A stretch of 64,000 bases of DNA from Danionella cerebrum (Eukaryota). This document shows, piece by piece, positions 107 through 55,687 of the stretch. Below the pieces are notes generated by a model. It searched no databases and was not told the origin of the DNA. It was given only the letters and a program-made list of their open reading frames with translations. The translations under genes were made by a program, and so were the position numbers. The stretch's first letter is position 1. Each line of letters starts with the position of its first letter. The stretch spans positions 427,535 to 491,534 of the forward strand of contig SRMA01025353.1 in NCBI GenBank assembly GCA_007224835.1, given 5' to 3'.

Positions 107-295
107 TCAGGAGTAAAAGGCTCTTGATAAACCGACACCAGCCACAGTCCACTCCTTATGAAGCTCTCCCGGATTCTCTGTGAGCATTAGCTTCTTTTGC
201 AATTGCCCTTTGAAACTTTTGCCCTTGTGGAAGGTGTCAATGTTGGTCTTCTGCGCATCCACCGAGTCAGCAGTCTTTTGCATGATGAAATACAT
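107..295 (-). other. Unassigned 62-aa ORF (MQKTADSVDAQKTNIDTFHKGKSF...). Could be a terminal or first exon of an unidentified minus-strand gene extending beyond the window start.
   Basis: ORF track only. An in-frame TAA immediately upstream of the first ATG. No phase-compatible acceptor for ZNF gene 1. No family recognised. Confidence 0.15.
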
Positions 296-594: not shown

Positions 595-662
595 TCACAG
601 AGTCTTTGTCAGAATCTCCTTCACTCTTGTCTTCGTAGAACTGGCAAAGATTAGCACATGTC
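595..662 (-). CDS. ZNF gene 1, terminal coding exon (short tail ...GHVLIFASSTKTRVKEILTKTL*)
   Basis: Strong acceptor ttatttttgttattcctgcag|GA on the minus strand (AG = plus 663-664). Its phase 1 matches the upstream donor. Stop TGA at 595-597. Confidence 0.4.
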
Positions 663-802
663 CTGCAGGAATAACAAAAATAATGTCGTGTATTCCTTGA
701 AAGATGTGGACTTTCTTGAAAATATTAGCCCTCCGGCGCACACACACACACATACACAGATATATATATATTTATATAAATTCTGATAACGTTAACATTT
801 AC

Positions 803-1507
803 CATGTTTCATCCGAAGGTGCTTTAGAAGGGCTGACGTTGTGTACTCTTTGCGCCCGCGAGAAATGACGGCCATACACATAAGGCACACTGCTTTGCTA
901 CAATCTCCCTCTTTCAGAGAGAAATACTTCCATACTGGGCTTGATTTGGCAACCGTCCTCTTTTGCATTTCGCAGCATTTACTGCTACAGTTTGTCCTGT
1001 TGCTACAAAGTATGTTGTGATACGAAACGTGATTATCCTCAAGAGATGAACTGCAGTGCTGAAAGGCTAAGGGAGGAATGTCAGCGTTGGTGTATGTTTG
1101 CTGAGTCGGGTGTTGAGTTCTGTAGACATCCGATATCCCTTGAGGCAAGTCTGGACATTGTGGAGACCAGTCCTGATACACATCTTCAGCACTTTGCATT
1201 TCATCTCCTGAACTTGAGTTCGAGTTTATGTATTCGACTTTAATTTTAGGGGCAAAATGAGAGTCCTCCACAGGAATCGTGTCATTGTTTTCCACAAACA
1301 CGTCCGAACTCTCGTTGGCTTTTGGTGGTGATTCTCTCTTTGCGTTGATGGAGTATCGAGGTTTTTCTGATTTGATGAGTGGGTGGAGCTCATCGTGCCT
1401 CTCACTCGGGTCCCCTGGGATCTCCTCAATGGTTTCTGGGTCTTCATTCTGACTACAGATCCATCCGGGGTGAATGGGGGAGATGGACTGATATGACTCC
1501 AAAGTAG
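803..1507 (-). CDS. ZNF gene 1, exon 2. A Ser/Pro/acidic region ending in a BED-type zinc finger (PVWKYF...CLMC...TTSALLKHLRMKH).
   Basis: Acceptor ttttttctttctttcttataag|CT (phase 1) joins in frame to the exon 1 donor. A BED C2H2 signature is present. Donor CATG|GTAAAT at 797-802 falls immediately after the last His of the finger. Confidence 0.6.
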
Positions 1508-1964
1508 CTTATAAGAAAGAAAGAAAAAAAATAAAGAATACTCTAAACATGAAATGTGTTAGCTATACGAATATCTGGAGCATCAACAGCAATAAACAAA
1601 ATGCAATTAATACCTTTCTCACAGCATTGAGCAGTCCACGTATATTTTAATTACATTTATTTAGCAAGCATTTCTCATGTTTTGTAAATACTTTTTAATT
1701 TATTTGACAATATTTTTTAGAAGTTAGTATCTTCCTTTGTTGCTGATAACATATACCAACTATTTGACCAGTCAACTCCCTATAATGACATTAAATATAG
1801 GTCAACTATTATTTAAACCTAATTTAAATAACATTTAACAAGGTTTTGTATATTCTAGTTTACCATACCATATATGCTTTTGGCTAGTTTTGGCTAATTA
1901 ACTCTTATAACAAAGATAACTCTATAACAAAGAATCTTATTTATTATTTACTCTGTAACGTGAA

Positions 1965-2185
1965 ATAACAAATAAGCATCTCGTTATTTAACCAAATAAC
2001 AATAAAGCATTTCATTATTTATGACGTGGTAACTAAATAATAATTATAAATAAAGCATTTCATTATTTATGACGTAGTAACTAAATAATAATTATAAATA
2101 AAGCATTTCATTATTTATGACGTGGTAACTAAATAATAATTATAAATAAAGCATTTCATTATTTATGACGTAGTAACTGTAATTT
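1965..2185. repeat. Minisatellite, about 4 tandem copies of a ~60-bp AT-rich unit (ataaagcatttcattatttatgacgtRgtaactaaataataattataa). Each copy has a TGACGT (CRE/ATF half-site) core.
   Basis: Direct reading. Near-identical units start near 1990, 2050, 2110 and 2160, alternating between TGACGTGG and TGACGTAG. Confidence 0.85.
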
Positions 2186-2517
2186 CAATCTAGGAACTAA
2201 AGCAAACAAAGCATCTCATTAATTATAACCCAGGAACTCGGAGAGAAACAGTCTCGTATTTTGTTTGACAAGTTCTTGTTTTGTTGTGACAGTAACAATA
2301 AGTTATTTTGTCGTTAACACGACTTACATATTTTGTAACTTATTTGCATAAGAAATAACGGCCAAGATTCGAGGATGATCGCTTTTATCTCGACCAGAGG
2401 CTCACTCAGACCGATACCAAAACAGACGCATGCAACACAACACGTGAATTAGACCAAGTATTTAAGAGCTAAACAACCACGATATTTCAAGCAAAAATAC
2501 TGCTTTAATCGTCATAC

Positions 2518-2697
2518 CAGCACTGGTGTCCATGGAGAAACAGCCGGTGTCTCGAAGCATTTCTTTAAGCCGCTGGTTTTCGCTCCTCACGCGCTCCGTT
2601 TCCTCCTCGTACTCGCGCACCGTTTTACCCACGGTGAAGAGGATCTCCTTCACCGCGGCCATCAGGCGCTCGGTCATAAACGAGTTCAGCCGGTCGA
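2518..2697 (-). CDS. ZNF gene 1, first coding exon. This is the fish-type N-terminal leucine-rich/coiled-coil domain (MTKLDRLNSFMTERLMAAVKEILFTVGKTVREYEEETERVRSENQRLKEML...).
   Basis: ATG at 2695-2697 (minus). Phase-1 donor GCTG|GTATGA at 2511-2517. Paralogous to the first exons at 11550-11739 and 14159-14348. Confidence 0.65.
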
Positions 2698-4512
2698 GTT
2701 TAGTCATTCTGCTGTTTAGTTGTGGCTTTATGGTTGAAATGATAGTGAATACAACAGGGAAAGTCCCCTTAAAATCAACCCGTTTGGTCAGTGTTGTTGC
2801 GCTGCCTGCTAAACTGTCTTCATCGCCCAACACAGGCCAGGAGGAGACACTGCAGGCCCTCAAGTAAAGCGATCGTATCAAATAGAACAAGAATTTAGAT
2901 CGAGTATATTAAAGTGTGTATTCTTTTTATTTAGGGAAAGTGAACACTTTTGAGCATCCCGAGGAAAAGTGTCCAGCAACGTCATCCTCAACGGTCGTTC
3001 AGTTGCCTAGTTACAAGCCTGTCAATCATACAGGTCAGATTCTCAACATTTGCTCTATCTATGTACAAGTTTATATATTGAAATATAGATTTATATATAT
3101 GCTGACTTGAAATGATTTGTCTTATAATACATGGCACTTTATATACCACTTTACAAAAGTCCTTTTGACACTTTTACCTGGTAAATGTTAAATATCTCAG
3201 ACTTCAAATGTATTATACAGACACAGTTCTTACATTTTCCTCACACAGTGATTTATCTTTCTTCCCTCTACTACCTCTAGATTTTTTTTGTTTACTTTTT
3301 TGTTACTTAGTCCCTTAGGATAAAAGGGTCTGCTAAATACATACATGTAAATATCTTTCCCTATGGTTTTTTTGTACCACTGATGTATCTAAAGAATATT
3401 TCCAATAAAGTAGCCAGCTATTTAAAAACTGAACATAAATGCATTAAAAAAATCTACATTTTATTTACTATGTCAACATTAAGGAGAAGTTAATTAAGGA
3501 GTTTTCATAATGGGTGCGTTCCTGAATAGTGGAACTGGACTGTGATTTAAAACCCAGAAGGCACAAAAGGTAAAATTCCCTTGTAAAGGCAATATATTTG
3601 TTCTTGTTCAAACGCAATGCTGAGTGTCTTTGCTTTGTGTTCTTATGTAAGAAAGATACTTTTTAGAACAAGTGATCCAATGTAATGTTAATATTGTATT
3701 AATTTGATTCTAAAATATTATCTATACATGTAAAAAAACAAATGCAATGTTTGCATCGAGCTTTTATTTATATGAACACATTACTTGAAACATCAGCTTT
3801 TGGTACTTTTTATCATATGTACAGTCCCTAAGCTAACAATATAATATAAATTCAACAAAAACCCACAGCCATTTTGCTCTAATAAGTCTCCTCTTGGTTC
3901 TCTAAAGCATCCAAATAATTTCAGCTTTGAACTGTATTGATTGAACTAGATTAAAAACAATTAATGTTGGGTTTGTTTATAGAGTTAAAACAACTTCAAA
4001 CAAACAAAAATTAAAGTAAAATTTGAGACCCTGGTACGTTCAAGTCTTGTAGACATTTTTCCAAGTCTCACAAACTCGATTAAACAGAATAGCATTCTTA
4101 GTTTGGAAGTTCGTCACAACTACTATTGTGTATCCAGGTCCCAGACCACAAAACACTAGAATCGGATTTGTAGACGACTTTAGGACGATTCCTATGCATT
4201 AATGGGTCTCCACTGTTGTCTGGAACAGATAAGGGCAAGAATCTGATATCGACTTGAGACTTTCTAATAATTTATGCACCATTCTAGCTTCCTTTTCAGT
4301 CACCAATGAAGAGCATAAAAACCATCTGTTCTCATTTGGATCAGTTGTCTCATCACAAGTGTGGGATTGTGAAAGTTGGGGTCTCTGTGAACCATTTACA
4401 AAGAACTTGATTTCTGACACTAAAAAATTATGAACAACAAAACTACTTTACATTCTATGACCAATTGGGAAAGGAAGCAAAAAAAAAAAAAACGTTTAAT
4501 TTCTCTACAAGT

Positions 4513-5706
4513 CTAAGACTTCTCTGAGATAATCTGATCTGGTTCATCATCATTGCGGTTTGTGGGTTCTTTAGATTCATTCTGGATGGTGTCGGTTGTG
4601 TCAGGAGCTTTTAAGGTAGAATCGCAGGAAAGATTTGTCCCCGCATCTGAACTTTCCTTTTGTTTGCTTGGGGATTCTTCTTTCTCATCATCATCTGAGA
4701 GGAGAACACATGTATTCAAGTTTTTCTGCAGCCTGTAAGAACTTATTTCCAACACGTCATCTTCAGTATCCGACAGAACATAACAATCTGAAGGACCGTG
4801 ATTCTCCATGATGTTAGAACAAGTTTCCTTTAACACTTCAACAAGCTCCTCATCATCCGAGAGGACGACACAGCTTGATTTCAGATCGTCCTTTTTCTCA
4901 GCAGCATCGGTATTCTTGAACCAAGACTCGAAATCACTGTTCTGTTTTAGAAGGGTTAAACGAATTGAGGAACTGGCTATTGAATCACTCTTTCCAGGAG
5001 AGTCTAGATGTTCGGATGGAGATGATCTGAAATCTTGATTTTCATCTACTTTACTCAACAACTGGTCTGAAGCACAGGGAAAACTACAGCTTATCTCCTC
5101 TTGGCGATGCTCTGGTGTACTTGGTTTAGATGTTTGATTGGTCTGTAAACTCTCCTTGGGGAGCTCCTCTGCTAAGGGAGAGTCATGCTGTGGGGAAGAA
5201 ACCACAACAGAGATTATCTCAGTTTTATGTAAAAAGTTGCAGCACATTTCAGGCATGTTTTCAACACCATGAGCAAAGCATTTATCCACTGCTTTGGAAT
5301 CCACGGAAGTTTCCGCTGATGTTTTTTCATCCCCAACCACCACGGAGGATATTTGATCATGATCAAAGACCCTTCTTTCAGAACCTCTTGATTTTAAGGC
5401 CTCAGGCAAAAAGCTCCAGTACTTGAGATCCCTTTCAACAGGTTCTAGAACAATCATGGGCTGCAAATTGAAGTCTTTCAAGTCGTAACTGGCTCTCTTG
5501 GCGTTTTTTGGAATTTTCTTGTCAAATGCCCCATATCCACCAATAACCAATTGTGGTAGGATCCCAGGTTTGGCAGCAATCTCTTGCGCAACAATATCAG
5601 GACTGCTTACGAGATTTTCAGGCTTTGAGTTGGATCCGCTGTTGTTTACATCCAAAGAGCTTGATTCATTCATGGTTTCTTCCAAACTTTCGCAGTTCAT
5701 TAGAGG
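4513..5706 (-). CDS. ZNF gene 2, terminal exon. A ~398-aa Ser/Asp/Glu-rich tail with three repeats of a SUMO-interaction-motif-like block (CVVLSDDEELVEVL, CYVLSDTEDDVLEI, CVLLSDDDEKEE).
   Basis: Acceptor ttttcccccaatgcag|CCT (AG = plus 5707-5708) in phase 0, matching the upstream donor. Long ORF to the stop at 4513. Confidence 0.6.
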   Translation of the reverse strand, partial: PLMNCESLEETMNESSSLDVNNSGSNSKPENLVSSPDIVAQEIAAKPGILPQLVIGGYGAFDKKIPKNAKRASYDLKDFNLQPMIVLEPVERDLKYWSFLPEALKSRGSERRVFDHDQISSVVVGDEKTSAETSVDSKAVDKCFAHGVENMPEMCCNFLHKTEIISVVVSSPQHDSPLAEELPKESLQTNQTSKPSTPEHRQEEISCSFPCASDQLLSKVDENQDFRSSPSEHLDSPGKSDSIASSSIRLTLLKQNSDFESWFKNTDAAEKKDDLKSSCVVLSDDEELVEVLKETCSNIMENHGPSDCYVLSDTEDDVLEISSYRLQKNLNTCVLLSDDDEKEESPSKQKESSDAGTNLSCDSTLKAPDTTDTIQNESKEPTNRNDDEPDQIISEKS

Positions 5707-5783
5707 CTGCATTGGGGGAAAACAGTGACAATGACTACGCTTCCAAAGTCATTCAAAGTAGTAAATTGTACTATGTACCGTAC

Positions 5784-6386: not shown

Positions 6387-8377
6387 CTTGTCAATCAATA
6401 AAAAAGTCAAACGGGTTAGTACATAATTGTTATTGACTTTTTCATGCACCTGGAAGTCTTACGAAAAACCCCCTACTCATACCTGGTGTAGCGTTCTGGT
6501 GTGTGGTTCTGGTGATGCCTTTCCAGCAGATGCTTCTTTACTGTTGGGTAATTTCTCCACCAGTTCTTCTTTGCATGACTATGAGAAAGACAAATTTCCA
6601 ACCTCAATAAGAGCATGAACGTAAACAAAAACATAACTAATCAGAACAGAGTTTTGCGTAACATATCATCATTTCTTTTTATGTTTCCAAGTCTTCACGT
6701 GAAGCACTAGAGATTGAAGGTTTTCCAAAACAACAGAAGACAGAGGAACCTTGGTTGGTTTTAGAACAAGGAAAGGCATTCACCACCCACAACCTTTATC
6801 TGTAAACTAAAAAAAAAAAAAACTTTTTTGTATGAATCACCTCAATGGTTATTTTTTAATTGTAAATCTGCCAGACTCCATTATGTATTTATTAAAACTT
6901 TCTGTACTTACCAACCAAATTTAAGCCATTGATTAAAATGTAAATGAGAAATCTAATGGTGTCTGTTCACTTACTGACGTCTTGCTGCACCAAAATGAAT
7001 TTGGAGCCATCATTATTGTTATATACCAGTAAAACGAGATTTCCGCATTAGTCTAGAGCAAACACCCCAGATATTTTCAGAATTATTCATATAATGCACC
7101 TGAAAGCTATTCTTTTTTTCTTCACAGCCTCAATTTTTAAGCATGAAAGATGAAATATTCCCACTGACCATCCATTTCTATGTGGACAGGAAACAGATTG
7201 GAACTTCTTCACTGGCTCCTTGGGAGACTACGAGGAAGACCTATTTCCAATCTCGATAAAAGTATGCGTGATCAGAAATCTAATCAGAATTGCGCTGCAT
7301 GAAGATCCCTATCTCCGTCTGGATTTTCCTCTTTCCATTATCTTAGATACAATTTAGGATTGTGACACTTCATGTGAAGAAACCTCTTTGAGAGTTTTCT
7401 CACACTTTAGACAGTGGAATCTTATTTGTTGTTTCAAGGAACCCTCCCTATTCCTTCATCATTTTCAGTCTGTCCCTGAAACAAATCCAAGGCCAGTTGA
7501 TTAGAGGAGGAAAAGTACAGGTTGCAAAAAGTGTAGCATTCCCTGAACACAATGTGTTTTTTTTTTATCGATTCATCATTCCATAGTAAACTCTGTGTGC
7601 TTATAATGAAGGATTCCAAGACTCATGCACGTATTAGTTTAATAAAGCTCATTTAGCCACCCAGGAAAGAAAGGAGGGACTGAGAAGCTGGTTCCGACAA
7701 TCAATGGGTAGGATTGGACCCGCTATTAAGGACGTGGGTTATTAGGAAAACTGATTTAGGCCTAAAATCCAGATCGACTCCCCCCAAAACATGTCATGTA
7801 AACAGTCCTTAAAGCCATAATGTACAGAGGGCTCCTGGACCCAGCTCGGTCTAGACTGACGCCATCTTTCAGGAGGAAAATCCCAAAGGAATGGCTTCAG
7901 AAGAAAGCTACATGGAGGTGCACCCATCCAACATAATGGAGTGAGCCATACTGCTACGATAAATGGAAAAAAGCATTCTAGTGAGTAATTTTGGTTAGAC
8001 TCAAGAGTTGTGGATTAAAAATGTAAAACTTTTACCTCAAAAGTCCAAAGTAGAACACGAAGGACCATGAACGATACAAGAACGCAAATTAATCGGGATA
8101 TTCTTCAAATTATGAATTTGCCTAAATTTTAATTTAAAGCCACTCTTGAACATTTGTAGAATAAAACAGAAGTGCAGACTCAAATGCAAACAATGATATT
8201 TAGAAAACATTTAATAACAATCAAATCATGCACAGGCAGAACGGGTTTTTTTTTAACTGTGTACATTTTCTATTTGCCTGCATTTAATTTGCAACACATA
8301 TATATTGGCTGCGTTTCTGATTATAAAATCTTCCTCGTCTCACTTTCTCCTCCAAAACTTTCTGGTTCGACCTTCAC

Positions 8378-8629
8378 CATTTTAATGGGAGCTCTGCGTG
8401 AAATGTTGAAGGGTGTCCCGACTGCATAGCTCTGCCGTTTTCCCTCTAGGAAGGAACGTGGATGAACTTGTCTAAGGTGACTCCACAAATTAGTGGTGTT
8501 CCTCTGACCAGCATTGGTGGACCCCTGGCTAACTTTAGCAGAACATTCACGGCAGACAGCTTCTCCAAATAACCCTCTTGAAAAGTAGTCCCAAACTTTG
8601 CTATAACAACGTTTTGCCCGAAAGCCCAC
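8378..8629 (-). CDS. ZNF gene 2, BED-type zinc-finger exon (SKVWDYFSRG...AVCRECSAKV...NTTNLWSHLRQVHP)
   Basis: Excellent acceptor ttgtttatttttctcgcag|GTG (phase 0). Canonical BED signature W-x-F...C-x2-C...H-x4-H. The proposed donor ATG|GTGAAG at 8372-8377 is of moderate strength. Alternatively the ORF runs to a stop at 8321 and the downstream exons belong to a separate gene. Confidence 0.5.
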
Positions 8630-9444
8630 CTGCGAGAAAAATAAACAATATATAATATTTGCCATTTATCCAATAAAACTTTCTCATGTGTACCTAACTA
8701 ATTAAGTAAGCATTATTTTTGTAACGATTAAGGGTGCACTTCAAATTAAACAAACCTGATCAGAACACTGTGAACAGGAAAAGTGCTTGAATTACTGACG
8801 AATCTAAAGATCATGCTAACGCTTTTGTGAAATATCCATTATCTTCATACCTCGTTCAAAACATAAAAATATTTCACACATTTCAGCAGCAGAGAGGGTT
8901 TTTTTTTCCATTTCCATGTTGCTTAAAAAGGTTGCCCTGCTTAATAATGTGGAATACCTTCCTTAAATTGGGCTCATCTGGCAACCAGAGATGCACTGAA
9001 TAATAACCCCAGGTAAATTTTGATTGTGTTATTTTGAATGAACTTTTGTGTACAAGCTCTGTTTTGGACCTCAGACTCACCATCAATAGTGCTTCCACTT
9101 CAGATGTTGCTTTCTTGTTGCCATCGAAGACTGCCTGTTGCTGCAGGCTGATCCTAAAATAACTCCTTAGTATCCGACAAATCCCTAAACTAATAGCACA
9201 CCTATTTTGAACCAATGAAAACAAGCTGATCCCACTTTCAAGATATTGATCATTGTCCACTGATCAATCAGACTATTATTCTTAGGTGAAAGCATTTGAA
9301 CAATTGAAACAAAAAGACCATAAAAGAGCACTCTGATACATACATTATCATAATGTAGCATTTTACTTGTGAAAAATAGCGTACATGTAGACATGTACCG
9401 TATATTAATATACCATTTATGACAGAAAAACAAAAGTACAGTAC

Positions 9445-9813: not shown

Positions 9814-10148
9814 CTGCAAAAAAAAAAAAAACAACAACAATATAATACGCATTTTGATGATAATGCAAATGCAGAACTTTCTCTCAGACATTAATTTGTA
9901 TGGATGTATAGCTATGGAAATTTAAATTTTTTTAATTAATTATTTCCACTTTGGATTATTCATTTGTTTAGTTAATAAAAAAATTGTTATATTGTAACGT
10001 TTCTTAAATGGGTGGGTCATCCCTCCTATTTTTTTTTTTTTTTAGTCTTTTAAGCATTTTTACATGGTATGGACGACTAAATTCACATGAGCTTTTTGAA
10101 CCCACAATAAGGTTAGTAAAATATAAAAATCTACTAAACGTCACTCAC

Positions 10149-10588
10149 CTGTGAGAGCCCATATTTTTTTTTTCCTTTTCTACTATTTCCATAGAAGAAC
10201 GTCTTGCGCTCGCGGCATGTATATCGCGGACTATCGTTGGAATGGATCCGCATGTGAACCAGCAGTGTCTGCTTTTTTGCAAACACTTTTCCACAATCTG
10301 GACAAGCAAAGGACATCTTCTGTCGTGTGTTCTGCTCCTTCCAGAGCCTGAACCTGGAGGCTTGTAAGGAAAGATCATATTCCATAGGAGCCATGAAACT
10401 TTGAGCATTCTCTTGTGCCTTCATTAACGTGACCATGATTTCAGGTCCGCTTAGAGGGCGTACAGTCGAGTTATTTTCAATGTCAGCGACATCTGAATTC
10501 AGTTCAAATCTGGGGCTGGCAGGTCTTTCATCTTCGTTTGATGGACTAGTTTCCTCTGGGATGGGAATGGTTGGCTTTTCTGATGAAT
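10149..10588 (-). CDS. ZNF gene 2, exon 2. Acidic/Ser-Pro region plus one C2H2 finger (FACPDCGKVFAKKQTLLVHMRIH) and a basic KGKKKYG tail.
   Basis: Acceptor aaattttcag|AT (phase 1) joins in frame with the exon 1 donor. Consensus donor CAG|GTGAGT at 10143-10148. Confidence 0.65.
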
Positions 10589-11549
10589 CTGAAAATTTTA
10601 AATTTAAGACATTTAGATTGCAATCTCTGCTCATGAAACTGAATTTATGAGACTTCAGTCAAAATGTCTCCCAACTATTTTACCATTAGAGGTCATACAC
10701 TCATTGACCACTTTAATAGGTACACCAGTCTGCTCGTCAACGAAAATTTCTTAACAGCCAATCACATGGCAACAACCAAATTATTTCAGGCAAGTAGTTT
10801 AATCTGCTGCAGTTTAAACCAAGCAGGGAAGAAAGGTTACGGTAAAGCTATACATCTCATTGGCATAGGCCATAACTGAACATAATTAAATGTTTGTTCT
10901 TACAAATTATGTACATTCCTCTTCAACTTTGTGGACTGACAGTTTAATGATTTTAAAACCCAATGTTTGCAATTTTATAAATACTCTTGAAAGTAATTCA
11001 ACTCATTAAAAAAACGATTAAATTAATTTTACAATATAATGGAGTCACCGCCTATGGACATTAATGGGAATAAATAATAGAAAGTCTTAAAACGTTTAGC
11101 TATATCAAAGCATTACACGTGTAGAAAACTTTTGTCCTTATGTAACTTTCCTTTAATGTAACATTGTATGTTTGTTGTTTGTAATTTAAAAAAAAAATAA
11201 CGTTGTATATTTTCGAAAGTGTAATCAAAGTCATCCGAATAGCGCGCCATTTTGGCCGCGCATGCGCATTAACAATAATTACGTCTAATTTTATTAATGC
11301 CTCTTAAAGCATTTAAATACAATGTCATTTCACTTAGAACGTAAAATACTTCTGTTTAAATGTAATGTCTATATTTTTGCTGGGATCACCATTAATTTAA
11401 GCTAAAGTGTTCTATTACCACTACAATGATCAAACGGCTAGTAATGGCCGCTGTTAACAAACGTCTTCCCGAGGAATCGTCACAACATGCCATCATTTCA
11501 GCGCACCTTTCTATATAAAAACTAAATATATCTAATTGTATTAAGTTAC

Positions 11550-11739
11550 CTGCCCACTCTGCAGAATTTGATTCCTGTTTCCAGCGAAGATTTCGTCGCA
11601 GTTCCTCGTTTTCTTTGCGCACACGGATCGTCTCCTCCTCGTACTCCAGCAGTACTCCGCCGACCATCTCCATGATCTGCTCCACCGCCGCCATCAGGCG
11701 CTCGTTCACCGCGCGATGCAGCAGCTGCAGCTTCGTCAT
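11550..11739 (-). CDS. ZNF gene 2, first coding exon (N-terminal coiled-coil domain MTKLQLLHRAVNERLMAAVEQIMEMVGGVLLEYEEETIRVRKENEELRRNL...)
   Basis: ATG at 11737-11739 (minus) with an in-frame stop upstream. Phase-1 donor GCAG|GTAACT at 11544-11549. Paralogous to the first exons of genes 1 and 3. Confidence 0.65.
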
Positions 11740-14158: not shown

Positions 14159-14348
14159 CGTTTAATCGAGTCTCGTTCCTGCTCAGAGCATCCTCCAGCT
14201 GCTGTTGGAGTCTCGCGTTTTCTAACCGTGTTTGGGCTGCTTCCTTCTGGTAGATGTTCACCGTCGCTTCAACCTCCACCCAGATCTCACGAATGACGAT
14301 AGACATCCGCTTCATTAGAGCGGAATGTAGCTTATCCAGTCTTGACAT
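14159..14348 (-). CDS. ZNF gene 3, first coding exon (N-terminal coiled-coil domain MSRLDKLHSALMKRMSIVIREIWVEVEATVNIYQKEAAQTRLENARLQQQLEDALSRNETRLN)
   Basis: ATG at 14346-14348 (minus). Consensus phase-1 donor AAACG|GTACGT at 14153-14158. Confidence 0.75.
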
Positions 14349-52105: not shown

Positions 52106-52253
52106 TGTGTGTCATGTAATAAATCCTTCAAGAAGCTGTGGTCCCTCCATGAGCATATTAAAATCGTTCATGGCTTTGCCGAGAAGAAATTTGCCTGTGA
52201 GATTTGTGAGAAGAAATTCTACACCATGGCTCATGTCCGAAAGCACATGGTTG
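52106..52253 (+). CDS. znf652: znf652 coding exon 2 ([49 protein letters not shown]-)
   Basis: Acceptor gtttgtgtcgcag|TGT. Donor GTTG|GTACGT. Near-identical to human. Confidence 0.9.
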
Positions 52254-52332
52254 GTACGTATAGTTAAATGCTCACAGACACATGAAATGTTCCCCAAGTG
52301 GAGATTTTTTGTTTTTTGGTGAATGTTTATAA

Positions 52333-52563
<231 letters not shown>

Positions 52564-53311
52564 TAGCTTCAGGTTTTTTGCTTAAAAAAGTACTAGAGAT
52601 CAATATTTTCCCTCAAACTCTATCTTTTGAATCTTTTTTTTCTCTTTGGTTCTTAAATAAAATGTACACTAGCATCAAGTTTCTACAGGAACTCATCTAG
52701 AAGGTTCCATCTCACCTAGCCTCCTACATAGCTGTTTCTCTTTCAGTTCATGACTGGGTTTCAACCTACATGTGACTGTTTGGCATTAGCAGCTGTGTAT
52801 CATGCACCGGACTATAATTCTTCCAAAGCCTTTATGCAAGTATAGCTATATGACTTAATGCTTGTCTGAAGAGAAGAGGTTCTAACACCAAATATTGTTT
52901 TAAATGAGATTTTTTAGCATTTTATCACATAATGGTATACTTAACTGGTTTCAGACGACGTTTTCTTATTAGTCACAAAGTAGATGTTTCTCAAAGCTTT
53001 GCTACACGCTCCTGTTTGTTTGACTTTTAATCATTTCGCTTGCTCCATACTCCCTTAAACGCTTTCTTTGATGCATCTTTTGAGATGAAAGAGAATTATG
53101 GGCTGTTTATAGGTCCTTTGAGGGTGGTCAAGGAGGAGCCCGTTGGTTTTGGCTGAGTGAGATTGGCCTGGTTCCTATGTATAGAGCGTTAATGACTGGG
53201 TTCTGATCCGTAATCGCCGGTTACTGCAGCCTGGTTCTGATTTAAGGTGAGGCTCAAACGGCCTCCACCCACTTGCTGTCTGTTTCTAAATCTGTGTCTC
53301 TCTTTGTGTAG

Positions 53312-53456
53312 AACTGCGACGAGAGGTTCCAGTACAAATACCAGCTCCGCTCGCACATGAGCGTTCACATAGGACACAAGCAGTTCATGTGCCAGTGGTG
53401 TGGGAAGGACTTCAACATGAAACAGTATTTCGATGAGCACATGAAGACTCACACGG
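53312..53456 (+). CDS. znf652: znf652 coding exon 4 ([49 protein letters not shown])
   Basis: Acceptor tctctttgtgtag|AAC. Donor ACGG|GTGAGG. Confidence 0.9.
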
Positions 53457-54139
53457 GTGAGGTGACGCATGCACCTGTTAAACATGTCCATAAGTATACA
53501 CACCCTGGCAAAGTTTCGATTTCTGGCCCATTTTAGTGAAGCCGTTTGTCAAACAACTGTGTTTATCCTGTCCCACTTAAAAGCCATCACATGGGAGAGT
53601 AAATGCTTTGCTGAGTTGGACAGTTTTGCTTTCTCCAGGGGAGTAAAACACCTGGTGTGGTGTTTTCTCCTCTGGATTGGAGCATTGAATGTATGTAAAT
53701 ATTTAATAGTTGTGGTTCCCACGAGTCAGTTTACATCAGTTGTGTCAGGACAAGGCGGGGTTGGACTGAAAGGGAGATGGGGGAAAGGTTTAAGAGTGAA
53801 AAGAAATATGGTATGTTCAGGTCGGTATTTTTCCAATTAAGTCCGTAGACAAAGACAAACCATGTCCGTTTGTTATAGTTCATGCAGTGTTTACACTTTT
53901 AAACCATAATGACAACAGGTCATTTTATTTTGGCCTGATACCATGCACAAAAACTAACACAGAAGGGTTTGAGCCGCTGATAAAGATAACCCTCTTCACC
54001 TCGACTTGTTTGCTTGGAATCAATAGTGAGGCGCCGACATTTCTGAATTCTGAGCACTGGGGAAAACAAAAGAGTTATCTATGGGAATTGTACAAAACAG
54101 AAAGGGGATATGAAAAAGATCAGCAAGGAACCAATCAGC

Positions 54140-54900
54140 AGTGCTCAAACTGATGAGGAAGTGGAAAGTGAGGGATTCTGGGGATTCGCATTTCTGCCAC
54201 AACTGCCAGAACAATGGTAAGGGATGCAAAGAAAAACCCACAAATAACTAAACACAGGGGCGCCCAAACAAAGGGTTGCTGTTTCAAGGAGCACAATAAG
54301 GAGACACTTAAAGAAGAATGGGTTTCATGGTTGAGATGCCAGAAGAACACCACAAATATCATGAAGTAGCTGCTTTAAATACGGCCAACAGCCACGAGAC
54401 AAGCTAGTAGCAAGTAGTTCTGAAGTTAGTAGTAGTTTCTGAAGTTATTTGGAGCAATGAGACCAAAGTTTTACTATTTGGCCACAACCATAAACGCTAC
54501 ATTTGGAGAGCAGTAAACAAACGGAACACCATCCCCACTGTGAAGCACGGGGGGATGGTTTGGTGATGTGTGAGCTCCAAAGGCACAGGAACATTGGTTG
54601 AGAAGATGAAGGCAGCATGTTCTGAAAGGATACTGATGTGCATCATCAGCCCGGAGGTCAAGTCCCTCGTCATTGGTTCCACCAGAACAAAGTGAAGGTT
54701 CTGGAATGTCCATCTCAGTCTCCTGACCTCAAGATCATTGAAGCAGTCTGGGGAGAACTCAAACGTGCAGGAGTTGGAAGCACCAAGAAGAATGGGCTGC
54801 TTGACAAACACAGAAGATAAAGAACCTCATTGACCATTACCTCAACCTCATCGACAACTACCTCCGGCTCTCACTGATGTTACAAAATGTTAAAAGCTAG
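54140..54900 (-). mobile_element. Tc1-like transposon fragment inserted in the last znf652 intron, in reverse orientation
   Basis: The plus-strand readings encode KHGGMVW.CVSSKGTGTLVEK and WFHQNKVKVLECPSQSPDLKIIEAVWGELKRA, which are transposase motifs. The tail (…agaagataaagaacctcattgaccattacctcaacctcatcgacaactacctc) is shared with 31264-31330 and 32466-32530. Confidence 0.6.
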
Positions 54901-55141
54901 GGTGTGTAAACCCTTGATCAGGCTCATTTGCAAAGTTTCTGTAGTTATTTTAATTTATAAAGAGTAAACCGTTTTTAACAATAAATGGCTTCACAAAACC
55001 ACTAACTAAGAGTTGTGAAAAAACTTTGTATTCTCATTCATATTTTCAGAAAAATGGCTGTGGTTCTAGAAATAATGTCAAGTTTAACCTTGTGGGACCC
55101 CGGTTGCTCTCTCTAATAGCACCCCACTTCCTGTTACTTGA

Positions 55142-55687
<546 letters not shown>

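What the first reader, a model, noticed from the sequence alone, without database searches (positions are those of the whole stretch)
803..950. BED zinc finger encoded at the very 3-prime end of an exon, with the splice donor immediately after the final zinc-ligand His
In ZNF gene 1 the BED finger (PVWKYFSL…CLMC…TTSALLKHLRMKH) is C-terminal in the protein. The donor CATG|GTAAAT falls one base after the last His codon. This leaves only a 22-aa tail from a small terminal exon (595-662). BED fingers are usually N-terminal in ZBED proteins. A C-terminal BED finger fused to the family-specific N-terminal domain suggests exon shuffling or exon capture from a hAT element.
Basis: inference. Interest (0 to 1): 0.5.

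Follow-up and report, generated by a model that had tools for sequence, protein, structure and literature searches.

The report
BED-finger gene with a young intron
A conserved carp-and-catfish-group gene ends in a transposon-type BED zinc finger; the splice site just after the finger is real, but it arose recently in the carp order from the gene's last codons and does not record how the finger was acquired.

Summary
On the minus strand a 3-exon gene (2707-2518, 1507-803, 662-595) encodes a 320-aa protein. Its Pfam BED finger (aa 253-298, E=1.8e-10) ends at His298 (806-804), one base before the donor CATG|GTAAAT. The 803→662 junction is supported by three spliced transcript contigs from related cyprinoids and by NCBI cyprinoid models with the same 22-aa tail. 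A fourth transcript retains this intron and ends GKC*.

The finger is hAT-transposase-like: its nearest outside relatives are N-terminal BED fingers, some with the hAT dimerisation domain. Host N-terminal domain plus C-terminal transposase DNA-binding domain is the usual host-transposase-fusion layout.

The intron, however, is not a shuffling scar. Characins and catfishes encode Gly-Lys-Cys-stop here using GGG/GGC/GGA, with no GT. Only Cypriniformes have GGT, which creates the donor, and they also share a conserved acceptor 80-170 nt downstream. The ancestral protein therefore ended three residues after the finger. The BED finger also shares its exon with a ~190-aa linker, and no transposase body survives.

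This is an ordinary, publicly annotated but unstudied gene (si:dkey-93n13.2 family) with a neat case of splice-site birth. Interest is low to moderate.

The parts
2518..2707 (-). Coding exon 1 (190 nt, ATG at 2707, phase-1 donor CTG|GTATGA). It encodes the N-terminal helical domain shared with the neighbouring ZNF genes.
   Evidence: The AF2 model gives one helix over aa 3-53 with pLDDT above 90. Genes 2 and 3 have the same 190-nt phase-1 exon. No Pfam family matches.
1508..2517 (-). Intron 1 (1010 nt). It contains a 48-bp tandem repeat at 2001-2178.
   Evidence: It is absent from transcript contigs L001-L004.
803..1507 (-). Coding exon 2 (705 nt): a ~190-aa acidic, disordered linker plus the BED finger.
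   Evidence: Linker pLDDT is 30-40. The acceptor is TTCTTATAAG|CT.
804..941 (-). BED zinc finger, aa 253-298. Zinc-ligand codons: C271 887..885, C274 878..876, H293 821..819, H298 806..804.
   Evidence: Pfam PF02892 E=1.8e-10. The ligands are invariant in the family. dN/dS is 0.02-0.05 against other Otophysi.
792..803 (-). GGT AAA TGT TAA: the ancestral last three codons (Gly-Lys-Cys) plus stop. In Cypriniformes GGT+AAA doubles as the 5' splice site G|GTAAAT (exon ends at 803, GT at 802..801).
   Evidence: GKC-stop is conserved with synonymous codon changes in characins and catfishes. GGT is found in all seven cypriniform sequences examined.
663..802 (-). Intron 2 (140 nt). It is alternatively retained and contains a (TA)n(TG)n microsatellite. 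The polypyrimidine tract and CAG acceptor lie at 663-685.
   Evidence: The acceptor block TTGTGTTATTYCTGCAG|GAAAT is conserved in five cypriniform sequences, including a sucker and a loach.
595..662 (-). Terminal coding exon 3: the last two bases of the Gly codon, 21 further codons (HVLIFASSTKTRVKEILTKTL) and TGA at 597..595.
   Evidence: A homologous 22-aa tail with the stop at the same position is present in cyprinoid transcripts and models. Cross-species similarity ends exactly at the stop.

Best explanation
Gene 1 is the window species' copy of a conserved otophysan gene that NCBI names 'uncharacterized protein si:dkey-93n13.2'. It encodes a small, probably nuclear, DNA-binding factor with three parts. 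The first is a ~50-residue N-terminal helix, encoded by a 190-nt phase-1 exon that the neighbouring C2H2 zinc-finger genes also use; it is probably a coiled-coil or partner-binding module. The second is a disordered acidic linker. The third is a single hAT-transposase-type BED zinc finger under strong purifying selection.

Ancestrally the protein ended three residues after the last zinc ligand (…KH-GKC-stop). In the ancestor of Cypriniformes the Gly codon became or stayed GGT. GGT-AAA then reads as a moderate 5' splice site (ATG|GTAAAT), and a strong acceptor arose 80-170 nt downstream in the former 3' UTR. Splicing removes the old KC-stop and adds a short new tail. In cyprinoids this tail became fixed at 22 aa, basic (KKRR) in most species and diverged in the window. 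Retaining the intron gives the ancestral GKC end. Both forms are seen in RNA from relatives.

Shown: the gene structure, the domain call, the homologous junction in RNA, the phylogenetic distribution of donor and acceptor, and the selection on the BED finger. Inferred: DNA binding, dimerisation by the helix, the hAT origin of the finger, and use of the junction in the window's own species.
For: Gene model and domain. Orthologue family in Cypriniformes, Characiformes and Siluriformes, plus one Denticeps protein. Spliced junction in L001/L002/L003 and intron-2 retention in L004. After the last His codon the sequences read: Salminus GGG AAA TGT TGA, Hoplias GGG AAG TGT TGA, Tachysurus GGC AAA TGT TAA, Silurus GGA AAA TGT TGA. 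All cypriniform sequences read GGT AAA TGT plus stop: the window, Pimephales, L004, Myxocyprinus, Triplophysa and two Paramisgurnus copies. The acceptor is conserved across Cypriniformes, but tail coding is conserved only in cyprinoids. Loach paralogues use the same phase-1 donor with other terminal exons. Tail dN/dS is 0.08-0.28 among other cyprinoids. BED dN/dS is 0.02-0.05. hAT-like nearest relatives. Shared 190-nt exon 1. Helix prediction.
Against: No RNA from the window's own species was available. On the window's branch the tail has dN/dS of about 0.7-1.2 (66 nt only) and has lost the KKRR motif, so the spliced form may be less important or decaying there. L004 could be an incompletely processed pre-mRNA rather than a true isoform. 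The donor-age inference rests on four non-cypriniform genomes. The hAT origin rests on a ~50-aa domain, and most of the nearest outsiders are unnamed fragments. The AF2 model of the BED finger has low confidence. Function is untested, and no paper mentions the gene.
Confidence: 0.75

Rival explanations
1. One reading: the donor immediately after the last zinc ligand marks the 3' boundary of a BED exon that was shuffled or captured from a hAT element. On this view the intron position is a relic of the capture.
For: The BED finger is hAT-like. Host N-terminal domain plus C-terminal transposase DNA-binding domain is the usual product of transposase capture.
Against: The donor is absent in the four characin and catfish genomes, where the same positions are synonymously varying coding codons. 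There is no intron between the linker and the BED finger. No transposase remnant lies downstream in any locus. In documented captures the transposon-derived splice site is an acceptor upstream of the transposase ORF, not a donor after the DNA-binding domain.
Confidence: 0.05
2. Gene 1's BED finger came from local duplication of the BED-containing exon of the upstream neighbour (gene 2, window 8630..8343), or both descend from one ancestral gene with the N-terminal domain plus a BED finger. On this view there was no independent hAT capture.
For: Two adjacent genes with the same 190-nt N-terminal-domain exon both encode a Pfam BED finger.
Against: The two fingers are only 41% identical. Gene 2's finger scores 22.9 bits on the gene-1 family profile, against 50-79 bits for hAT-type outsiders. 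Gene 2's BED exon has no homologue in a 5.8-billion-protein collection. The annotated orthologues of gene 2 list no BED hit. Gene 2's finger therefore looks like a separate, younger acquisition.
Confidence: 0.08
3. In the window's species the gene ends by read-through at TAA 794..792 (…KHGKC*), and exon 3 is an unused or decaying relic.
For: GKC-stop is intact in the window. A relative's transcript retains the intron (L004). The tail's dN/dS is about 1 on the window branch, and the KKRR motif is lost. The donor is only moderate, matching 7 of 9 positions of MAG|GTRAGT (read from the sequence).
Against: The donor, the polypyrimidine tract, the CAG acceptor, the 22-codon frame and the stop position are all intact. 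Similarity to Pimephales stops exactly at the stop codon. All other cyprinoid models and three transcripts use the junction.
Confidence: 0.2
4. The locus is a pseudogene or a chance ORF with a fortuitous BED-like motif.
For: None beyond the absence of any functional study.
Against: Full-length orthologues occur in three fish orders. BED dN/dS is 0.02-0.05 with saturated synonymous sites. Spliced transcripts are present in relatives.
Confidence: 0.01

Closest known systems
Host-transposase fusion (HTF) genes formed by transposase capture (Cosby et al., bioRxiv 10.1101/2020.05.07.082677; e.g. KRABINER, SETMAR)
   Same: A host N-terminal regulatory or interaction domain on its own exon, followed by a C-terminal transposase-type DNA-binding domain under purifying selection. 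hAT is one of the main donor superfamilies.
   Different: That survey covered tetrapods, and this is a fish gene. The partner domain is not KRAB or SCAN. No acceptor lies immediately upstream of the BED finger, because about 190 linker codons share its exon. No transposon remnants remain. Only the finger is retained, truncated three residues after its last ligand.
ZBED proteins and hAT transposases (Pfam zf-BED PF02892 plus Dimer_Tnp_hAT PF05699)
   Same: A CCHH BED finger with the W-x-Y/F-F aromatic signature and the 'SKAxC..C...SRG…TTS.L..HL..KH' pattern. The best outside matches are N-terminal BED fingers of hAT-type proteins.
   Different: There is no catalytic core and no hAT dimerisation domain. 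The finger is C-terminal. Domesticated ZBED4/ZBED-like fingers are more distant, at 43 bits or less.
Two-exon 'N-terminal effector domain plus DNA-binding array' zinc-finger genes (KRAB-ZNF in tetrapods; FiNZ-ZNF in cyprinids, PMC10547256)
   Same: A short N-terminal domain on its own exon, followed by one exon carrying the linker and DNA-binding domain. The gene sits in a tandem cluster with paralogues that carry C2H2 fingers.
   Different: The N-terminal domain here is a ~50-aa helix, not the 28-aa Glu-rich FiNZ, and it has no Pfam family. The DNA-binding module is a single BED finger rather than a C2H2 array.
Splice-site birth and intronisation at a gene's 3' end (a new alternative terminal exon recruited from the 3' UTR)
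   Same: A donor created inside pre-existing coding codons (GGT AAA read as G|GTAAA), with a new short terminal exon and co-existing retained-intron and spliced forms.
   Different: This is a general evolutionary phenomenon named from established knowledge, not from a specific family. No comparable case was searched for in the literature here.

Membership tests
Pfam zf-BED (PF02892) | Profile score above the gathering cut-off | tested here: met
   41.1 bits against a cut-off of 20.6, E=1.8e-10, aa 253-298, profile positions 1-43 of 44.
Pfam zf-BED (PF02892) | CCHH zinc ligands and the N-terminal aromatic signature (W..[YF]F) | tested here: met
   C271, C274, H293, H298, W256, Y258 and F259 are invariant in 28 sequences.
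Host-transposase fusion genes | A domain derived from a transposase | tested here: inconclusive
   The nearest non-family fingers are N-terminal BED fingers, and two of them carry PF05699. P0183 is 58% identical. The domain is only ~50 aa, however, and no cognate transposon family was identified.
Host-transposase fusion genes | Fusion in one ORF to a host domain not found in transposases | tested here: met
   The N-terminal helix exon is shared with neighbouring C2H2 genes 2 and 3 and with the downstream gene in other species.
Host-transposase fusion genes | Splice acceptor immediately upstream of the transposase-derived ORF, and/or flanking transposon remnants | tested here: not met
   The BED finger lies 567 nt into exon 2 with no intron before it. 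There are no transposase-body matches in the window or in six loci. Age could have erased such traces.
Host-transposase fusion genes | Purifying selection on the transposase-derived domain | tested here: met
   dN/dS is 0.02-0.05 over 46 codons.
ZBED / hAT transposase proteins | hAT C-terminal dimerisation domain (PF05699) and an RNase-H-like catalytic core | tested here: not met
   Pfam finds only zf-BED. The protein ends 3 or 22 aa after the finger.
FiNZ-ZNF (PMC10547256) | A 28-aa Glu-rich FiNZ N-terminal domain followed by a C2H2 array | tested here: not met
   The N-terminal domain is a ~50-aa helix of different sequence, and gene 1 has no C2H2 finger. The FiNZ consensus itself was not aligned.
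Autonomous hAT transposon | Full transposase ORF, terminal inverted repeats and 8-bp target-site duplication | tested here: not met
   No transposase body was found. TIRs and TSDs were not searched for specifically.

The most novel reading that the evidence does not exclude
The si:dkey-93n13.2 family is an ancient fish host-transposase fusion. The fusion predates the split of Cypriniformes, Characiformes and Siluriformes, and possibly the split from Clupeiformes. A hAT BED finger replaced the C2H2 array of a zinc-finger gene carrying the N-terminal helix, producing a one-finger transcription factor. In Cypriniformes a synonymous GGT codon then turned the stop-codon region into an alternatively spliced intron that swaps the C-terminus. 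A second, apparently lineage-specific BED exon in the neighbouring paralogue (8630..8343) would then mark this cluster as a repeated acceptor of hAT fingers.
Probability: 0.45. Interest if true: 0.35.

Novelty: new member of a known kind. Interest (0 to 1): 0.25.

Why it matters
The gene model is already in public annotation, so the practical gain is small. The analysis does correct a tempting inference: here, an intron flush with a domain boundary is a derived, order-specific splice site, not evidence of exon shuffling. It also gives a clean, datable example of a 5' splice site being born from coding codons (GGT AAA) and of a new terminal exon being recruited from a 3' UTR. Finally, it points to an uncharacterised, strongly conserved fish protein with a single BED finger and the architecture of a host-transposase fusion, a class surveyed systematically only in tetrapods.

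Tried and rejected
(1) A PDB sequence search with the finger gave only a marginal match to ZBED2 (2djr, E=0.045), so it did not help with ancestry.

(2) A profile search with the N-terminal domain returned only short fragments covering exon 1, so it did not show the domain's usual partners. Genomic context was used instead.

(3) A search with gene 2's BED exon found no homologue. That leaves the exon's age unresolved, because the fetched flanks of the other loci do not reach that part of gene 2.

(4) I suspected the ORF at 107-295(-) was a Tc1/mariner remnant. Pfam gives no hit, so the idea was dropped.

(5) FiNZ was considered as the identity of the N-terminal domain and rejected on length and composition.

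(6) No fold search was run. The AF2 model is a single long helix plus disorder, with a low-confidence BED finger, so any matches would be meaningless.

(7) A literature search for the gene name found nothing.

(8) Cluster look-up of the nearest outside BED fingers gave almost no organism names.

Full report
OBSERVATION. The minus strand of window 595-2707 carries a eukaryotic three-exon gene. Exon 1 is 2707..2518 (190 nt, donor CTG|GTATGA). Exon 2 is 1507..803 (705 nt, acceptor TTCTTATAAG|CT). Exon 3 is 662..595 (68 nt including TGA). The joined ORF is 320 aa. Pfam finds a BED zinc finger at aa 253-298 (window 941..804), E=1.8e-10 and 41.1 bits against a cut-off of 20.6. The last zinc ligand, His298, is CAT at 806..804. 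The acceptor is TTATTCCTGCAG|GA (663/662) and intron 2 is 140 nt. Splicing yields the tail GHVLIFASSTKTRVKEILTKTL*. Read-through yields GKC* (TAA at 794..792).

IS THE JUNCTION REAL? A search of 5.8 billion proteins found a family that NCBI names 'uncharacterized protein si:dkey-93n13.2' in Cypriniformes, Characiformes and Siluriformes, plus one Denticeps protein. The closest hits are only 69% identical, so the window's own species appears not to be represented. Four NCBI cyprinoid models (Pimephales, Sinocyclocheilus, Pseudorasbora, Carassius) end with a homologous 22-aa tail, for example GNVLIFGSAEKRRMKEITRKTM.

Three short Logan contigs encode the full protein although they are shorter than the genomic span (L001, 1425 nt; L002, 1739 nt; L003, 1333 nt). 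Aligned to the window they lack both introns and read ...AAACATG|GAAATGCGCTAATC..., the exact homologue of 803|662. A fourth contig (L004) lacks intron 1 but is collinear through intron 2 and ends GKC*. The two look like alternative isoforms. Nucleotide similarity between the window and Pimephales runs from 35 nt upstream of the acceptor to exactly the stop codon at 595, as expected of a coding terminal exon.

HOW OLD IS THE DONOR? This is the key result. I fetched the genomic loci of orthologues and read the bases after the last His codon.
- Cypriniformes all read GGT AAA TGT plus stop: the window, Pimephales, the L004 species, the sucker Myxocyprinus, the loach Triplophysa and two Paramisgurnus copies.
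- The characins read GGG AAA TGT TGA (Salminus) and GGG AAG TGT TGA (Hoplias).
- The catfishes read GGC AAA TGT TAA (Tachysurus) and GGA AAA TGT TGA (Silurus).

Gly-Lys-Cys-stop is therefore conserved as protein, with synonymous variation in two codons, and there is no GT outside Cypriniformes. The ancestral gene ended three residues after the finger. The donor is a by-product of the GGT-AAA codon pair.

The acceptor block TTGTGTTATTYCTGCAG|GAAAT is conserved in all five cypriniform sequences aligned, including the sucker and the loach. It is not detectable in the characin, the catfish or Denticeps. Downstream of the acceptor only cyprinoids share the 22-aa frame. The sucker and the loach would read unrelated tails of 50 and 34 aa. 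Loach paralogues are annotated with the same phase-1 donor joined to other exons (KH+A…, KH+V…). One such exon is a locally repeated sequence. Intron 2 is thus a cypriniform innovation, and the 22-aa tail a cyprinoid one.

Tail dN/dS is 0.08-0.28 among the other cyprinoids but about 0.7-1.2 on the window's branch. This rests on only 66 nt, so it is indicative only. The window's tail has also lost the KKRR motif.

WHERE DID THE FINGER COME FROM? I searched a BED-only profile (A2) against 1.84 billion representative proteins and re-scored the hits per domain.
- Family fingers score 113-143 bits.
- The nearest outsider scores 78.6 bits (P0067; its cluster mate P0183 is 58% identical). Its finger starts at residue 4 and continues 'KHPKEY…'.
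- Next come dozens of proteins at 50-61 bits whose finger lies at positions 2-60. Among the longer ones, P0147 (643 aa) and P0175 (528 aa, Ciona) carry the hAT dimerisation domain PF05699, and P0099 has a typical hAT transposase body.
- ZBED4-like and other domesticated ZBED-like proteins score 43 bits or less.

This favours a hAT-transposase origin for the finger, but a ~50-aa domain cannot give more than that. Most of these hits are unnamed fragments from scattered metazoans. No transposase body is detectable in the window or in six orthologous loci.

The finger is strongly constrained. dN/dS is 0.02-0.05 against other Cypriniformes and the catfish, and synonymous sites are saturated against the characins.

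THE HOST PART. Exon 1 encodes a domain with no Pfam family. AF2 models it as one long helix, aa 3-53, with pLDDT above 90. The linker is disordered, and the BED finger and tail are modelled with low confidence. The window holds two more copies of this domain, in gene 2 (ATG at 11739) and gene 3 (ATG at 14348). All three have a first coding exon of exactly 190 nt ending in a phase-1 donor. Gene 3 has three C2H2 fingers in its second exon. The gene downstream of the orthologue in Pimephales, Myxocyprinus and Triplophysa also pairs this domain with C2H2 fingers.

Gene 1 is therefore a member of a local family built as 'N-terminal helix exon plus DNA-binding exon', in which a BED finger stands where C2H2 fingers normally are. 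The domain is not FiNZ, which is 28 aa, Glu-rich and restricted to cyprinids (PMC10547256).

COMPARISON WITH KNOWN SYSTEMS. Host N-terminal domain plus C-terminal transposase DNA-binding domain is the standard architecture of host-transposase fusions. hAT is a major donor superfamily (bioRxiv 10.1101/2020.05.07.082677). A C-terminal BED finger is therefore what capture would produce, not an oddity.

Two hallmarks of documented captures are missing here. [quoted passage not shown] Second, there are no transposon remnants. Age may have erased both. The fusion predates the split of the three otophysan orders. It may be older still if the Denticeps protein is a true orthologue, but that gene lies in different synteny. 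I therefore say the gene works like, and probably originated as, a host-transposase fusion, with membership only partly demonstrated.

RIVALS. A local origin from gene 2's BED exon (8630..8343; Pfam E=1.9e-9) is unlikely for three reasons. The two fingers are 41% identical, and gene 2's finger scores 22.9 bits on the family profile. That exon has no homologue in the protein collection. The annotated orthologues of gene 2 list no BED hit. Read-through-only expression in the window's species remains possible, at about 0.2. A pseudogene is excluded by the conservation.

VERDICT. The one modestly new point is the order-specific birth of a splice donor from the codons GGT AAA, which converts the ancestral stop region into an alternative intron. 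Interest is 0.25.

Noticed in passing
window 8343-8630 (-): A 288-nt cassette-like exon inside the upstream neighbour (gene 2). It is flanked by a strong acceptor (tttttctcgcag|GT) and a donor (GAAA|GTGAGA) and encodes a second Pfam BED finger (E=1.9e-9). It is only 41% identical to gene 1's finger and has no homologue in a 5.8-billion-protein search. It may be a lineage-specific exonised hAT finger, which would make it a better candidate for 'exon capture' than the flagged one.
   Followed up: partly
window 2518-2707, 11550-11739, 14159-14348 (all -): Three tandem genes share an N-terminal helical domain with no Pfam family. In each it is encoded by a first coding exon of exactly 190 nt ending in a phase-1 donor. 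AF2 models it as a single ~50-residue helix with pLDDT above 90. It is different from FiNZ.
   Followed up: partly
window 2001-2178: A 48-bp tandem repeat of 3.7 copies at 97% match lies inside intron 1 of gene 1. Two smaller arrays lie at 1899-1933 and 1963-2021.
   Followed up: no
window ~725-775: A (TA)n(TG)n microsatellite lies inside the 140-nt intron 2. The intron is otherwise unalignable between cyprinoids, apart from its two splice-site ends.
   Followed up: no
window 4513-5712 (-): The large 3' exon of gene 2 (a 399-aa ORF with no Pfam hit) contains three hydrophobic-acidic clusters: VVLSDDEE, YVLSDTEDDVLEI and VLLSDDDE. By eye they resemble SUMO-interaction motifs.
   Followed up: no
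P0038 (Cyprinus carpio UniRef model): This model joins gene 1's exon 1 and a piece of exon 2 to C2H2 fingers of what appears to be the downstream gene. It is either a chimeric annotation or a read-through transcript between tandem paralogues.
   Followed up: no
L013:7436-7519 (copies at 4307-4375 and 1439-1516): In a Paramisgurnus paralogue the same post-His donor is annotated as splicing to a different terminal exon. That exon's sequence recurs elsewhere in the locus, suggesting a tail derived from a repeat.
   Followed up: partly
window 52106-55318 (+): A separate multi-exon C2H2 zinc-finger gene lies on the opposite strand, with at least seven finger matches. It is unrelated to the cluster of genes with the N-terminal helix.
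   Followed up: no
L010 (Denticeps) 10001-11212: The Denticeps homologue has an N-terminal domain closer to the window's gene 2 (60%) than to gene 1 (52%), but a BED finger of the gene-1 type. It ends YKC followed by a basic tail, KMVKKRVPSK. It lies in different synteny (MVP, CD225 and PDZ neighbours), so its orthology is uncertain.
   Followed up: partly
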